Shown here: one piece after another, positions 22,701 through 64,000 of the stretch | How the letters are laid out: every line of letters begins with the position of its first letter | Position numbering within the stretch: position 1 is the first letter of the stretch | Source: Isurus oxyrinchus | Lineage: Eukaryota | Length of the DNA stretch: 64,000 nt | Direction of reading: 5' to 3' | Assembly (NCBI GenBank): GCA_026770705.1 | Contig: JANJGN010000034.1 | Location: 5,084,001 to 5,148,000, forward strand | Position numbers: made by a program

Positions 22701-25700
22701 CATACCACAACTATGACCCCCATAACTGAACACACATCTATCAGATCATGTCTCAACTTTCGCTGCTGCAAGGAAAACAGTCCAGCCTATCCAATCTTTC
22801 TAAATATCTCAGACCCTCCAGTGCAGAATATGACCTGGCAAATATCCTCTGCACCGTCTCCAGCGCAATCCCTTTGTTCCTAAAATCTGTGGGCCAGAAT
22901 CGTATGCAATACTTCATTCATAAACTAATCAGCGTTTTATACAGTTCCAAGACAACTGCCCTGCCTTGGGATGCTAACCCTTGGCTAATAGAGGCAAGTC
23001 TCCGATGATTAGGTGACTTACATCAAAGAACATTTAACTTAAATCTATATTTATATTGTAGTCGCATGAATAACAGAAATAATAAAAGTTTAAAACATAA
23101 TCATCACAGCTGACATTCTTTTCATATTTCTATGTTTAAAAATCATATCAATGGCGTATTGTTGTATGCATACTACACTCATGAGGCTCTAATGACACTA
23201 CATAATGCGGGTTGTAGCTGGTGAATTTGTGTGGGTTCTGCCTTCTCGTTCCTGGAAATAATTAGCTACCAGGCAACTGATGTTCCATCTTGGCATAGCC
23301 TGTTCACGAACCGTGGTTAATATATTTTGAGGCGTCACATCAAAAATGCGGACACGAATGCTTCTTTATGAATATGTGTTATTCCAAATATCTGCACAGA
23401 GTTACCCTGCAAAATCGGGCACACTTACCTTCGAATATATTTTCCACCCCATGGTCATTATGCTGCATCCAGAATGGGAGGTTTTCGGAATAATGGATGA
23501 ATTCCTAGGTCTTTGTGCTATAACGCATAAAACGACGTTTTCAACTTCCCAGTGAAGGAACTGAATGCAAATAAGAGGCAATTAGTACCTGGGATATCAG
23601 AACTACATACTGACCCATCACACACGCCTTCAAAACACGGGGATGATGCATGACCTGGAGGTGATGTCCAGCATGCCAATAAAGTTAAAAACTATATTGT
23701 ATTCCGACTCCAAAAACGAATGGGTAAATTAGCTTATTCAGACAACATTACAAGTAGGATTGATACAAGGGGTGAGTTACTCATCGCAGGATTCCTCAAG
23801 TATGGCCTGCTTTTGTCGCCACAGTACTAATACCGCTTGTCCATTTCAATTTCTGGTCATTGCTATCTCCAAGGGTATTGTCTTCAAACGGCATGCTCAG
23901 ATATTGTGAAATAGTTGAGACTTCAATTTTGAAATGATGCTCAGGGGCTAGATTAATTATGCATGAGGCACAGATTTTGCGCAGAATATTTATGGCTTCC
24001 TCGATATTCCCCACAGGACTGAAAAAGTGCCAAGAAGGTAAGCCACTGAAAAAAAAACAATTGTACTCCAGTGTGAAATTGCACGAAATTCTGCGTTGGT
24101 GGTAGCTTTGAAGTTTGCAGAAAATTCCACTCGAAGCCTATGGCCAGCTATAAGTCAAAATGACGAAGATCAGCATTGATTGATCACCTCATTTTGGATT
24201 TTATACCAAACAGTTTTATTATGTGTTATTCAGTTATGAATCTTTGGACTATGAGGCTATTTCCACTTGATTGCATTCTTTCCTAATTTCCATTCTATTG
24301 CTTCCACTTCCGTTCAGCTTACGCATCTAGGTGTACAGAGATTTTGTTGCAATATTTTGAAGTGCTTAGCCATATTTGCAGCAAACAAAACGTTTCTAAG
24401 AAGTCATATTTAATATCCTGAATATTCCAAAGACTGATTAAATGACTTACAAGGGACACATTTTGAGATAAATACGGCTTAGTAATTATTCGGACAAACG
24501 ATCATAAGCTTTATCAAAGGAATATTTTTTAGCATCTTAAACATGGGAAGAAGTTTTATATTTGGAGAGGTTTGGGCAGGATTACAGGATTAAAAAAAAA
24601 AATCCAGAGCACCAGACAAATATAGATAAGCGCTTCAAAATATCAGCAAAATTAAAGCTCTGCACACACGTGGTATGTAACCTGAACGAAAAACATTATA
24701 ATGCCACAATGTAAGAGAGCTGTACAGTTTCTTTATCCTTCTGTGGTTTAATTCATTTTGAAGTCTTAAGAGAAAACACATGTTTATGCTGCTTTACATT
24801 GGCTCTATCAAACCTACCAGTAACTCACCATTCAAAAAAAAATGTTTTTGTAGCCATAGGGACAAAGTGAATAACATCACATTCCTTTCTATTTCTCTGC
24901 ATTGGCCTTTATTTTACCAACTCGCCACTCTATACCAGTCCATCCTGATTGCTATAATCTGCAAATTTAGAGGTATTGAACTCTCCCTCTTTATCTAAAT
25001 CATTTCCATATATTGTAAGGCTCAAGCCCAAAACTCTACATTGCCGGACTCCATTTCTTTGCTGCCTGCCAACTTGCACATAAGATTCTGTTTACTCTCT
25101 TTTCGATCCATTAAAGAATCCACGATCAGTGGATTTAGCCCAAACCCATGTGTCTCCATTTTGTATATTAAACGTTGGTGCTGCACAGTTAAAAATGTGT
25201 TATCTAAATCCATGTTCAGAACTAATATGTTTCCCCTTTTATACATTACAAGTTACACCTACAAAAACATTTTATTGCTTCATGAATCAGGATTTATTTT
25301 TTTTTTATCACTGAAACTACATTGTCGTGTTCCTTTGATATTATGATTTTCCACTTTCATTTGTTCACATTATCCTAATAGTAGAGTGTAACTTTATCCA
25401 AGAACTCATATTAGGCTAACTGGCCTCTGTTCAGGGTTTTTTCTCAATCCTCCTTTTCTTTAGAAGCGGTGCAATTGTTGACAATTTACAATCTAGTCTC
25501 ATTGTTTGCTGAATATAAGTGATAGATAACACAATATCTCTGCAGCTATCTCTCTAAGTACGCGAGCATGTAGACCATCAGGTGCCAGCAACTGTTAGCA
25601 TTTTGGGCACATATATTCATCGCTATTTTGCCTTTGCTGTTATTAATTTCCATAATATCCTTACACTTGTAAGGGCAGAGTGTTGTGTCTTTTTGGAACA

Positions 25701-26785
25701 CAACTTATGTTTTCTACTGCGAAGTCAGATACAAAATATTTGTTTAGTAACATCTCTTGTGTCTATTTCTGAGGGAAAATATTTTACTTAAGTATGCTCT
25801 CCCTTTTCATGTACTCTGATATTCTTTGGTTCCCTTTGATAAAATTGATGGTTGGCATTTGCTTGTATCGGGAACACTCCCCAATATCCCTATTCAGTTT
25901 AGTAAAATTGTAAGCCTCTTCTTTTAACGCAATGTTCTTCTTAACATCGCGTTTGGGCCACAGGTTTATTGCCGGGGTTTCAGTTTTCAATGGAGTGTAT
26001 TTTGTTGAACTTTTTTAATTGTTTCGTTTAACGTTGCCCACATTAGACTTGCGTCTATATATGCATCAGTCTTTAACCAATAAAATCAGCCTCTTCTCCT
26101 TTCACATCTGTTTAATTAGTCACTCTTTTGTTTTGGAGTGTTGCTTGCGATTGCAATATACAGCTTTCATCCGTCACATAAAATTGATTGGCGCAATAAT
26201 CACGCTTTCCAATTGCATCTTTTAATCTGGCATCACAGATTGGGCATGTTCAATAACAGATTATCAGGTCTGAGCTCGATTAATGCTTAGATATTTCCAC
26301 TGCTCACAGTACCAAGAATATTTCATGGAAACATTCTTAAACAAATCTTCTCGATCGTTCTGGCCAATCAATTGTGACAGTTTAACTGAAGATTAACTTT
26401 TCCAAAAACAATTACACTTCCTTTGTTATAGCCTCCCACTATTATAATTTCTGTAATTATACTCCGAGTTGCATAACGAGAGTTAGGGGTAATATGAGAT
26501 CCTCCCAGCAACATTTTCTGACTCCTGCAGTATCTAATTTATCGGCCGAGACGTGCTTGGAAAAATATATCATTGAAAATAACAACCGGTATTCAAGAAT
26601 GTCGACAAATGGATTGAGAGACAGAGAGACAGAAAATAAACATATGCAATATAGGTATCATTGTAAGCATTAAGGGGACGCACATCATTCTACGTTGAGA
26701 CAAGAAAATGTCCTTAATTGTCTTAGAATTGTGAGATAGTATGTGAGTGTTGGTGGGTGTATCTGTGAGAGGGAGGGAGAGAATA

Positions 26786-62100: not shown

Positions 62101-64000
62101 ACTTGGAAATACTTTACATTTTCGAACAGGTTCAGGGAAGGAATACAAGAGTATTTTTTTAAAGAAACACATAACACAAGACCAATGTAGCTAAGCACTT
62201 CAAAATATTGGCAGAAGAATCTCTGCACCCACGAGATATTTAATCTGAACGAAAGTGATTAAAAGGCCACAAATTAAGAGAGTTTTGCTTTCTTCTTTCA
62301 ACATTCTGTGGTTTAATAACTGTTGAAGACTTTGTGAAATTTATATGTTTATGCACCTTTTCACTGGCGCTATCGCGTTGCTGAAAATGGGCCACCTACC
62401 ATCGGAAAATGCCTCTAAATGATTCGTTTGACAAGTTATACTGGAATTTCTCAAAACAACTGAAAAGAGATTTTGTTAGCATTTGGCTAACTTAATACGC
62501 TTGAGAAATATAATTTGGGCATGAAAGCATAAGAACACAAAATAAAGGAGAACGAGTAGCTGACACCACCTATCGAGCTTGCTTCGGCATTCAATGGGAT
62601 TATGGCTGATGTTTGTCTTCAGATGCATTATAGTGCCGCTCAACACATCCCTTCATGCTGTGACAGAAGAAAAATCTGTTTATCCTACCCTTAAATTTAT
62701 TCAACGATGGATAAGCTACAACAAATTGAGGAAGAGAAATCTTCAGACACACATCCATAGTGTAAAGAAATGTATTGTCATGTCAGCCCTAAATGATGGG
62801 GTCATTAGACTGAGACTGACATGCAGTGTAAGTTTCCCCGACCAATGGAAACACTATGTCAGTTATCCCCCTATCAAGACAAATGATAATTGAATAGCTT
62901 TCAGCGAAATCGCCTTTTATCATTCTAAACTTCAGAGGCATAAAGCCAAAAGATATTTAGCCACCAACACAAACATATCAGAGACCAATTTAGTTAACCT
63001 TCACTGTGCCACCTGAAAAGCAGTGTATCATTTCTTAAGTGCGGTGACGAACATTGCTTGAATTCCAGATGCCCCCTCACTAAACACTGTACAACTGCCG
63101 AAAGACTTATATAATCTTGCACTCTAAACACATTTGCAATAAAGGACAGCATGTAATCTGCCATCCTGCTTACTTGTTGCACCTGCATGCTAACTTTCAG
63201 TGTCCCTTGTGTCAGTACACTCAGTTCTCTTTGAACATCAACTAGTTACTCACCTTTCAAAAAATATATATATTCTGCATTTTTAGTCTTACAGACAAAG
63301 TGAATAAATTCATGTTTCTCTGTATGACTGCATTTGCCATCATTTTGCCCACTCGACTCGCCTTAAAATTCCAAACACTTTCCTATACTCAGCCAACTTA
63401 GATACATTTTTCTCTGCTTCTTTATCAAAATCAATGCTATACAGTGCAAAAAGCTGACACCCCTCACCTGTTCCTTGCAGGCCTAAATTATTTGGTGCAT
63501 GTCAACTTCGAAATTAAGGCACTGTTTACGCTCAGTCTGTTTTCAATCCATTAACCAATCTGCTATCATTGCCGATATATTAGAGCAACTCCATTTGCCC
63601 CTAATTTGCACGTTATCCTTTCATGTCTCACCCTTTCATATGTCTTATGTAAGTTCACGTAGAAAAATTCTAATTTCCTCGCTTTTACGTAAAACTAGTT
63701 ACATCTAAAAATAAAACTATAATTGTTTGATGAATCAGAATTTTACTTTTCTCAAACAATAATGGTTTGTTCCTGATATTATGCTTCCCCAAATACATTT
63801 GTTGGGATATCCTCAAAATTAGTTTGCAACGTTCTCCAAGTACTGGTGTTAGGCTAAGTGCCCTAAAGTTCAGCGCTTTTTTTCCCCCCTCGATACTGCC
63901 TTTCTTGACATGTGCTGCAACAATTGCCATTTTGCAATCAGGTGGCATTGATTGCTAAATTTCGGTAACTTTCTGAATGTGACAGATAACACATTATTTC

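What the first reader, a model, noticed from the sequence alone, without database searches (positions are those of the whole stretch)
23900..62400. Graveyard of heptad cassettes: exon birth-and-death caught in progress
Seen: the cassette holding live exon 24017 recurs at about 35164, 46839 and 54650 with colinear flanks. The three later copies share the same downstream CR1 insertion, but each has different lesions. 35164 lost both sites, 46839 has AG>AA plus TAA, and 54650 has GG at the acceptor with a perfect donor and an open heptad. No canonical heptad exon was found in the last 40 kb. Inference: multi-kb duplications add candidate heptads that are then silenced by point mutations. 54650 is one substitution from activity, so heptad number may vary between alleles or species.
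Basis: partly seen in the sequence, partly recalled or inferred. Interest (0 to 1): 0.65.

Follow-up and report, generated by a model that had tools for sequence, protein, structure and literature searches.

The report
Old decayed copies of heptad exon
A gene that encodes a coiled coil one seven-residue turn per tiny exon carries at least six long-dead duplicate exons in a transposon-rich stretch downstream of its last intact heptad exon; this is ordinary exon duplication and decay, and it is ancient rather than ongoing.

Summary
The cassette around the 21-nt exon at 24017 recurs at 35164, 46839 and 54650. All three later copies have the same retrotransposon fragment directly downstream. Tools show it is the 3' end of an endonuclease plus reverse-transcriptase LINE on the minus strand. 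Its relatives are named 'jockey' by NCBI; the CR1 clade itself was not tested. No intact heptad exon follows 24017.

Three more relics lie at 49661, 57688 and 58258, and one at 7461 sits inside the live array.

The copies differ by 0.31-0.51 substitutions per site, so the duplications are an old burst, not birth-and-death in progress. Relic cores are no better conserved than their flanks (P 0.26-0.57), whereas live exon pairs are (P 0.001-0.006). Most of the 'colinear flanks' are LINE pieces. Variation in heptad number between alleles has no support here.

This is a new member of a known kind, of modest interest.

The parts
24017..24037 (+). Last intact-looking heptad exon (A): 21 nt, phase 1, AG acceptor, GTAAGC donor
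   Evidence: Its core identity to 7 distant live paralogues is 0.59, inside the live range of 0.53-0.63.
23788..24186 (+). Cassette A: the exon plus the flanks that are homologous to B, C and D
35164..35184 (+). Relic B: AA at the acceptor position, TT at the donor, heptad pattern lost
   Evidence: The cassette homology spans 35056-35301.
46839..46859 (+). Relic C: AA at the acceptor, an in-frame stop, GTATGT donor
   Evidence: The cassette spans 46699-47035.
49661..49681 (+).
   Evidence: E 1.2e-15.
54650..54670 (+). Relic D: GG at the acceptor, open frame, GTAAGT donor, Ser in place of Cys
   Evidence: The cassette spans 54423-54845.
57688..57707 (+).
   Evidence: (E 1.3e-6, from a model not trained on it).
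58258..58278 (+).
   Evidence: E 0.0017; E 1.2e-16.
35345..36601 (-). Shared LINE fragment, copy in B: 5'-truncated 3' part of ORF2, broken. 10 in-frame stops inside the matches, 2 reading frames used.
   Evidence: matches residues 668-1001 of the 1002-aa protein P0016.
47020..48588 (-). Shared LINE fragment, copy in C: 3' part of ORF2, broken. 8 in-frame stops, 2 frames used.
   Evidence: (E 5e-17 to residues 897-1001 of P0016).
54980..56580 (-). Shared LINE fragment, copy in D: 3' part of ORF2, broken. 7 in-frame stops, 2 frames used.
46699..54391 (+). C unit of the 7.5-8 kb tandem duplication: cassette, LINE, C2 and block X
   Evidence: 7 blocks colinear with 54511-61760, at 64-73% identity.
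54423..61760 (+). D unit of the same duplication: cassette, a 135-bp younger insert, LINE, D2, D3 and block X
22533..23160 (-). LINE piece upstream of A (block P). Its paralogue lies upstream of B at 34432-35047. Both are cut short at the element's 3' side at about the same point.
24812..26540 (-). LINE piece downstream of A (block Y). Counterparts lie at 37069-39085 (B) and at 62636 to the window end (after D). All are broken: 14, 18 and 3 in-frame stops.
24200..24809 (.). Block Z, with ~74-bp inverted repeats inside it, sits between cassette A and Y. Its counterpart at 61760-62374 sits between X and Y after the D unit.
7461..7481 (+). Relic inside the live array. AG acceptor kept, donor weak (GTACTG). 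Its last base, joined to the first two bases of the next live exon, would read as a stop codon.
   Evidence: (E 7.8e-24).

Best explanation
The + strand of the window carries part of a gene whose coiled-coil segment is encoded one heptad per 21-nt, phase-1 exon. Eight exons look intact: 784, 10514, 12074, 12515, 15941, 18744, 19663 and 24017.

The stretch from about 22.5 kb to the window end is a set of old tandem segmental duplicates of a cassette-bearing unit: A, then B, then a third unit that was itself duplicated into C and D. A LINE had inserted just downstream of the cassette before B, C and D separated. Only copy A stayed under selection as an exon.

The other six cassettes in this stretch are pseudo-exons decaying at about the neutral rate. 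They were disabled by substitutions at splice sites, one stop codon, loss of the heptad pattern and small and large deletions. They now lie in what is most likely one intron of at least 40 kb, which is also about 38% LINE fragments by my sum of the bounds.

Shown: the homology, the lesions, the shared LINE, the C-D duplication, the age and the lack of constraint.

Inferred:
- The duplications arose by unequal recombination between the many same-orientation LINE pieces.
- At least some copies were spliced for a time.
- A lost its own downstream cassettes and LINE by deletion.
For: - 15 cassettes are found, all on the + strand, at E <= 5.3e-10. The next hit is at E 0.11.
- A, B, C and D form a clade in 86% of bootstraps, and C with D in 83%.
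- Live-live pairs keep the acceptor, exon and donor better than the flanks (P 0.001-0.006 in 4 of 4 such pairs). The 6 A/B/C/D pairs and the C2-D2 pair do not (P 0.26-0.57).
- A's core matches distant live exons at 0.59, against 0.47-0.54 for the six relics, with flanks near 0.40.
- K2P distances are 0.31-0.51 in the cassettes, 0.43-0.49 in the shared LINE and 0.36-0.46 in Y.
- The LINE fragment is identified.
- 13 of 15 LINE fragments lie on the minus strand and bracket the cassettes.
- P is cut at the same point in A and B, right at the A/B unit boundary.
- The C2 and D2 exons are identical at 18 of 21 positions against a flank identity of 0.63 (P 0.022). This hints at a period of constraint after the C-D split.
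- B, C and D share about 45 nt or more between the end of their homology with A and the LINE. A lacks that stretch, which fits a deletion in A.
Against: - No transcript evidence exists for any exon, 24017 included.
- The gene and its 3' exons were not found, so 'intron' is an inference.
- The branching order is unresolved. B+C+D appears in only 22% of bootstraps and A+B in 49%. Y distances put A with B. The shared LINE and the shared loss of the Cys codon put B with C and D.
- Independent LINE copies elsewhere in the window (1905-3178 and 42692-43931) are also 67% identical. LINE blocks P and Y therefore do not by themselves prove segmental duplication of A and B.
- Outside P, the cassette and Y, units A and B share nothing detectable.
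- The conservation tests rest on 52 core positions per pair.
Confidence: 0.7

Rival explanations
1. One reading: exon birth-and-death is going on now. Copies are recent candidates being silenced one point mutation at a time, and heptad number differs between alleles or close species because 54650 is one base from use.
For: D keeps an open frame, a GTAAGT donor, a pyrimidine tract and the branch-region motif shared with A. It differs from the canonical acceptor at one base. 49661 and 58258 are also one base from canonical sites.
Against: The copies are 27-37% different in cassette, LINE and Y sequence, with K2P 0.31-0.51. Relic cores drift like their flanks. D has lost the Cys codon. No two copies are young. 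Nothing makes this one site more likely to be polymorphic than any other base.
Confidence: 0.08
2. Dead on arrival: the duplicated cassettes were never spliced into the mRNA. The B/C/D ancestor was already defective when it was copied, or the copies landed where exon definition failed.
For: B and C share AA at the acceptor. One ancestral loss followed by two changes in D costs the same three steps as three independent losses. B, C and D share the loss of the Cys codon. No excess core conservation appears in any A/B/C/D pair.
Against: The inferred B/C/D ancestor had a canonical donor and an open frame. The C2 and D2 exons are 18 of 21 identical, and both substitutions between them are silent. 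Donors were lost by different lesions in C2 and D2, and in B compared with C.
Confidence: 0.3
3. The relics are not in an intron. The gene ends soon after 24017, and B, C and D are partial gene-fragment duplicates lying downstream of it.
For: No exon of any kind was identified after 24037.
Against: The exon at 24017 ends in phase 1 with a strong donor, so a further exon is required. The copies are in tandem, in the same orientation, and share the intron-like flanks of A.
Confidence: 0.15
4. The cassette is part of a mobile element, and the 'exons' are chance or exonised pieces of it.
For: The window is full of repeats, and some cassette neighbours are transposon pieces.
Against: All 15 cassettes are on one strand. 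The 8 intact ones all keep 21 nt. The phase-1 frame is the only one open in all of them. A hydrophobic residue sits at position 2 in 8 of 8, and all have canonical sites. Exon cores are better conserved than flanks in live pairs. No LINE protein match covers a cassette.
Confidence: 0.03
5. Assembly artefact: the repeated units are collapsed or mis-joined copies of one locus.
For: None beyond the fact that the units are in tandem.
Against: The copies differ at 27-37% of positions and carry different indels and insertions. Artefactual duplicates would be nearly identical.
Confidence: 0.01

Closest known systems
Tandem exon duplication followed by exon loss (for example the B7-H3 IgV-IgC exon pair)
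   Same: Exons plus flanking intron are copied in tandem inside a gene. Their length is a multiple of three with symmetric phase, and some copies later drop out. For PMC3172298 I saw a passage of the abstract (tandem exon duplication in B7-H3) and its reference-list entry for Ling et al. 2003, whose title names 'exon loss'.
   Different: Here the unit is a 7-residue microexon rather than a domain. Several generations of dead copies are still alignable in one intron. No species comparison is available.
Repeat proteins built from one repeat per exon: collagen 54-bp exons, titin PEVK and nebulin exon arrays, and the CD23 stalk with one 21-residue repeat per exon (all recalled, from no call)
   Same: The length of a fibrous or stalk segment is set by the number of near-identical, frame-neutral exons, which expand by segmental duplication.
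   Different: I know of no described gene with one heptad per 21-nt exon, and four literature searches found none. Membership in any of these families is untested because the gene is unidentified.
CR1-type (jockey-group) LINE 3' fragments in vertebrate introns
   Same: A 5'-truncated 3' end of an endonuclease plus reverse-transcriptase ORF2, antisense to the host gene, heavily mutated, and usable as a shared-insertion marker.
   Different: Assignment to the CR1 clade, as against L2, Rex1 or another jockey-group clade, was not tested.
Birth-and-death evolution of tandem gene families (recalled concept, Nei and colleagues)
   Same: Duplication by unequal exchange, retention of some copies and pseudogenisation of others in the same array.
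   Different: It operates here on exons within one gene. The record is of one old burst, not a continuing turnover.

Membership tests
Tandem exon duplication with pseudo-exon relics | Exon and flanking intron sequence repeated in tandem, in the same orientation, within one locus | tested here: met
   15 cassettes, all on the + strand. The A-D pairs give E 4e-35 to 7e-58.
Tandem exon duplication with pseudo-exon relics | Frame-neutral exon: length a multiple of 3, same phase at both ends | tested here: met
   21 nt in all 8 intact exons. Only the phase-1 frame is open in all of them.
Tandem exon duplication with pseudo-exon relics | Relic copies lack splice signals or an open frame and evolve without exon-level constraint | tested here: met
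   (lesions). (core versus flank P 0.26-0.57). (core identity 0.47-0.54 against 0.53-0.63 for live exons).
Tandem exon duplication with pseudo-exon relics | Relics absent from the mature mRNA and the parent exon present in it | not testable with these tools
   No transcript data or vertebrate collections are on hand.
Ongoing (polymorphic) exon birth-and-death | Young copies, or copy number or splice-site state that varies between alleles or sister species | tested here: not met
   the least diverged pair (C-D cassette) has K2P 0.31. Variation between alleles or species itself could not be tested.
CR1-clade LINE (the shared insertion) | Homology to ORF2 of an APE plus reverse-transcriptase non-LTR element | tested here: met
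   E 5e-17 to residues 897-1001 of P0016, which carries PF03372, PF14529 and PF00078; tblastn covers residues 547-1001 in C, 668-1001 in B and about 524-928 in D.
CR1-clade LINE (the shared insertion) | Placement in the CR1 clade rather than L2, Rex1 or another jockey-group clade | not tested
   The only names returned were 'RNA-directed DNA polymerase from mobile element jockey' (2 of 56 hits, Pristis pectinata), 'reverse transcriptase domain-containing protein', and uncharacterised or hypothetical entries, plus four host-protein names (HBS1-like protein twice, transmembrane protein 231, lysosome-associated membrane glycoprotein 5). Pfam found nothing above cut-off in 10 of 10 ORFs of the region.
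CR1-clade LINE (the shared insertion) | Same insertion event in B, C and D: same site, orientation and element end | tested here: met
   colinear alignment from the cassette flank into the element in all three; minus strand in all three.
Coiled-coil heptad repeat | Hydrophobic residues at positions a and d of successive heptads | tested here: inconclusive
   L, M or F at exon residue 2 in 8 of 8 intact exons. Residue 5 is Cys in 5 of 8, Thr in 2 and Tyr in 1. No coiled-coil or structure prediction was run, because that needs the joined exons.
Recursive-splice or decoy exons of long introns | A strong acceptor directly followed by a regenerated donor | tested here: not met
   relics with good donors (D, D3) lack an AG. 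The two relics with an AG (C2, D2) lack a donor.

The most novel reading that the evidence does not exclude
The gene is a modular coiled-coil 'ruler'. Every heptad is its own frame-neutral 21-nt exon, so stalk length can change one turn at a time by exon gain, loss or skipping. The slow decay of this genome has preserved a dated fossil series of such changes: seven dead cassettes beside eight live ones. Heptad number would then differ between cartilaginous-fish lineages. No heptad-per-exon gene turned up in four literature searches.
Probability: 0.3. Interest if true: 0.55.

Novelty: new member of a known kind. Interest (0 to 1): 0.3.

Why it matters
It is a clean, datable example of how a repeat protein changes length. 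Whole cassettes are copied by multi-kb duplication, one copy is kept, and the others fade. They stay recognisable long enough to be counted.

For annotation, the relics carry perfect or near-perfect donors and open frames. Gene predictors could mistake them for exons, or they could act as cryptic sites. The shared LINE fragment and the other LINE pieces give independent neutral clocks for the duplications.

The heptad-per-exon architecture of the live array is the more unusual feature and deserves identification of the gene. The graveyard itself is expected biology.

Tried and rejected
I then sent stop-free ORFs only.
- 30 window ORFs in three Pfam calls gave nothing above cut-off. The best were RVT_1 at E 0.0055 for 31357-31698(+) and at E 0.24 for 43208-43591(-).
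- Rfam at gathering threshold gave 0 matches. ARAGORN found 0 tRNAs.
- The word-indexed protein search with the LINE ORF of copy C found nothing among longer proteins. The exhaustive search found 12 short unnamed relatives. Pfam on 10 of them gave nothing above cut-off.
- The ESM Atlas gave only unnamed 'hypothetical protein' clusters.
- The minus-strand ORF of copy D alone does not match P0016 by BLASTP (E 0.31), although tblastn does cover that copy.
- A last protein search, meant to place the organism, returned 3 unnamed hits.
- A text search for a 10-residue motif of the LINE relatives found no paper.
- I considered a three-heptad higher-order unit, from the similar spacing of 15941/18744/19663 and 54650/57688/58258. 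I dropped the spacing argument because the C/D interval contains the later LINE insertion and the tree does not pair the cassettes by position.
- I considered that 61.1-64 kb is a fifth unit with its cassette deleted. I rejected that: it is the tail of the D unit (X, Z, Y).
- The recursive-splicing reading was rejected (see membership test).

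
Full report
WHAT THE WINDOW IS

It is 64 kb with no N, about 40% G+C, and no long open reading frame. I do not take it for human. The only named relatives of its retrotransposon fragments come from cartilaginous fishes, with weaker ones from a turtle and a frog. The species was not determined (one search returned 3 unnamed hits).

THE LIVE ARRAY

A strict scan for AG, 21 nt, GTRAG with a pyrimidine tract finds 8 sites on the + strand and 1 on the - strand. Six of the + sites are mutually homologous. 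A profile of the cassettes adds two more intact-looking exons (12074, 12515) and further degenerate copies.

In all, 15 cassettes score E <= 5.3e-10, all on the + strand, and the next hit is at E 0.11. The reversed window gives nothing at E <= 10. Ten local shuffles give best E values of 0.026-7.4, and one of the ten gave no hit.

Eight cassettes look intact: 784, 10514, 12074, 12515, 15941, 18744, 19663 and 24017. They share these features:
- Each exon is 21 nt.
- Only the phase-1 frame is open in all of them.
- Residue 2 is L, M or F in 8 of 8.
- Residue 5 is Cys in 5 of 8, Thr in 2 and Tyr in 1.

That is a heptad pattern with Cys at one core position, one heptad per exon. In live-live pairs the acceptor region, exon and donor are better conserved than the surrounding 220 nt (P 0.001-0.006 in 4 of 4 such pairs). 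This is what selection on real exons predicts.

Each exon alone is 7 residues, below the minimum of every search tool, so the gene is not identified. Four literature searches found no description of a heptad-per-exon gene.

CHECKING THE OBSERVATION

Pairwise BLAST of A (23788-24186) against each copy gives:
- B: E 3.8e-35
- C: E 2.1e-43
- D: E 6.2e-44
- C against D: E 6.7e-58

A profile built without A-D still finds A, D and C at 8e-13 to 2e-9, and B at 0.013. In a tree of the 15 cassettes, A, B, C and D form a clade in 86% of bootstraps, and C with D in 83%.

- A has AG and GTAAGC.
- B has AA and TT.
- C has AA, an in-frame stop and GTATGT.
- D has GG, an open frame and GTAAGT.

After 24037, the relaxed scan leaves four AG-21-GT sites. 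All have weak donors and none has cassette homology. The statement about the last 40 kb therefore stands.

- The C and D units each hold a second relic, at 49661 and 57688. Both keep the AG acceptor and an open heptad with Leu and Cys in place. They lost the donor in different ways: a substitution in one, a small deletion in the other.
- D holds a third relic at 58258, with AA at the acceptor, a GTAAGG donor and an open frame. It has no counterpart in C.
- 7461, inside the live array, keeps its AG but has a weak donor. It ends in a base that would form a stop codon with the start of the next live exon.
- The count is therefore eight live and seven dead. Dead copies are not confined to the 3' 40 kb.

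THE SHARED INSERTION

B, C and D align colinearly for about 1.2 kb starting at the same point after the cassette.
- Pfam saw nothing in 10 of 10 ORFs there.
- A 114-residue minus-strand ORF of copy C has 12 relatives at E <= 0.001 in the exhaustive protein search.
- One of these relatives, P0008, leads to 56 longer proteins. Five carry the full endonuclease and reverse-transcriptase domain set and a sixth carries part of it. Two are named 'RNA-directed DNA polymerase from mobile element jockey'.
- The window ORF aligns to the last 105 residues of one such 1002-residue protein at E 5e-17.

The stretch is therefore the 5'-truncated 3' end of a LINE, antisense to the gene. 'CR1' is plausible, but the clade was not tested.

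Used as tblastn queries, six of these proteins map 15 LINE fragments in the window, 13 of them on the minus strand. All are broken. For example, the three shared copies have 10, 8 and 7 in-frame stops and use two frames each. The one near-full-length copy (29444-32302, + strand) has 18 stops and uses three frames.

This changes the reading of 'colinear flanks'. Block P upstream of A and B, and block Y downstream of A, of B and of the D unit, are LINE pieces. Two LINE copies that are not colinear with anything (1905-3178 and 42692-43931) are just as similar to each other, at 67%. LINE similarity alone therefore proves little.

What still argues for descent by duplication:
- The non-LINE cassette itself.
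- The identical insertion site of the shared LINE.
- P being cut at the same point in A and B, exactly where A-B homology starts (22533 and 34432).
- The X-Y and Z-Y adjacencies.

STRUCTURE

- C to D is an unambiguous tandem duplication of 7.5-8 kb: seven colinear blocks, about 5.9 kb aligned, 64-73% identity.
- The stretch from 61.1 kb to the window end is not a fifth unit with a deleted cassette. It is the tail of D: block X, then Z, then Y.
- B has cassette, LINE, X, Y.
- A has cassette, Z, Y.
- A lacks the LINE, the second and third cassettes, X, and also some 45 nt or more that B, C and D share between the cassette flank and the LINE.
- I therefore think A lost this interval by deletion rather than never having had the LINE. 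That is inference.

The branching order is unresolved. Discrete characters (the LINE, and loss of the Cys codon) join B, C and D. Y distances join A and B. Bootstraps give 22% for B+C+D and 49% for A+B.

AGE AND CONSTRAINT

K2P distances:
- Cassettes: 0.31-0.51.
- The shared LINE: 0.43-0.49, over 1063 columns.
- Y: 0.36-0.46, over 638 columns.

The C-D split is barely younger than the B split. This is an old burst. At ordinary vertebrate neutral rates, which I recall rather than computed here, it would be of the order of a hundred million years or more.

Such divergence also excludes an assembly artefact.

In the six A/B/C/D pairs and the C2-D2 pair, the exon core is no better conserved than the flanks (P 0.26-0.57). 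Against seven distant live exons, A's core identity is 0.59, inside the live range of 0.53-0.63. The six relics score 0.47-0.54, and the flanks are near 0.40. So A has been held and the others have drifted for most of their history.

WERE THE RELICS EVER USED?

The evidence is mixed.
- For: the inferred B/C/D ancestor had a canonical donor and an open frame. C2 and D2 are identical at 18 of 21 exon positions against 63% in their flanks (P 0.022), with only silent differences. Donors died by different lesions.
- Against: B and C share AA at the acceptor, so one ancestral loss is as parsimonious as independent losses. The Cys codon was already gone in their common ancestor.

I put about even odds on a period of use.

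VERDICT

The idea of duplication followed by silencing is supported. 'In progress' and 'may vary between alleles' are not.

D does differ from a canonical acceptor at one base, as do 58258 (acceptor) and 49661 (donor). In copies this old, that says nothing about present variation.

The likely mechanism is unequal exchange among the many same-orientation LINE pieces. This is inferred from their arrangement only.

Known parallels are tandem exon duplication with later exon loss, as in B7-H3 (PMC3172298; I saw an abstract passage and one reference-list entry), and exon-per-repeat genes recalled from memory.

STILL UNCHECKED

- Transcripts.
- Other vertebrate assemblies and population data.
- The identity of the gene.

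Noticed in passing
window 16409-16429 (+): A further AG-21nt-GTAAGT site with a good pyrimidine tract and an open phase-1 frame, 468 nt after exon 15941. It is not homologous to the cassettes (nhmmer E 19) and has no Leu/Cys pattern. It could be an unrelated or newly arisen microexon, or chance.
   Followed up: partly
window 10647-10745, 12213-12248, 16125-16194, 19764-20011; also about 950-1000 and 18800-18850: Purine-rich tracts ((GA)n, and (GGAT)62 after 19663) lie 50-200 nt downstream of most live heptad exons. They are part of the aligned cassette flank. The A/B/C/D subfamily has none nearby. They may be an intronic aid to microexon recognition, or just a microsatellite copied along with the unit.
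   Followed up: no
window 29444-32302 (+): A near-full-length LINE of the same family (matches residues 43-1000 of a 1002-aa ORF2 relative), on the + strand. It is broken by 18 in-frame stops and uses three frames. It accounts for much of the length of unit A and for the strong G and A skew at 28-33 kb.
   Followed up: partly
window 22142-22474 (-) and 32412-32749 (+); 22015-22106 with 22495-22586: Two LINE pieces with the same bounds in the protein (about residues 761-872) are inverted copies of each other at 72% identity. The first is bracketed by a 92-bp inverted repeat of 85% identity. This looks like an old inverted duplication, or a composite element carrying a LINE piece.
   Followed up: no
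window 24305-24690 and 61865-62257: Block Z contains ~74-bp inverted repeats about 240 bp apart in both copies, like a small non-autonomous DNA transposon. Homology between the two copies extends about 100 nt beyond the repeats on each side.
   Followed up: partly
window 54846-54978; 53490-53622; 28323-28451; 28613-28702 with 53397-53486: A ~135-bp repeat inserted in D between the cassette flank and the LINE. It is 86% identical, inverted, to a copy 1.3 kb upstream, and has older relatives in unit A. It is much younger than the duplications.
   Followed up: no
window 58517-58639 and 51195-51240: A borderline cassette-like hit after D3 (E 0.08-0.11), and a GTAAGG donor at the matching place in C. 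This may be a fourth, almost erased relic.
   Followed up: partly
window 593-4810 and 7270-9771: The live array shows the same kind of colinear multi-kb paralogy, at offsets of about 6.7, 6.3 and 5.0 kb. Each unit holds a minus-strand LINE piece about 1 kb after the cassette. The whole array seems to have grown by unit duplication.
   Followed up: partly
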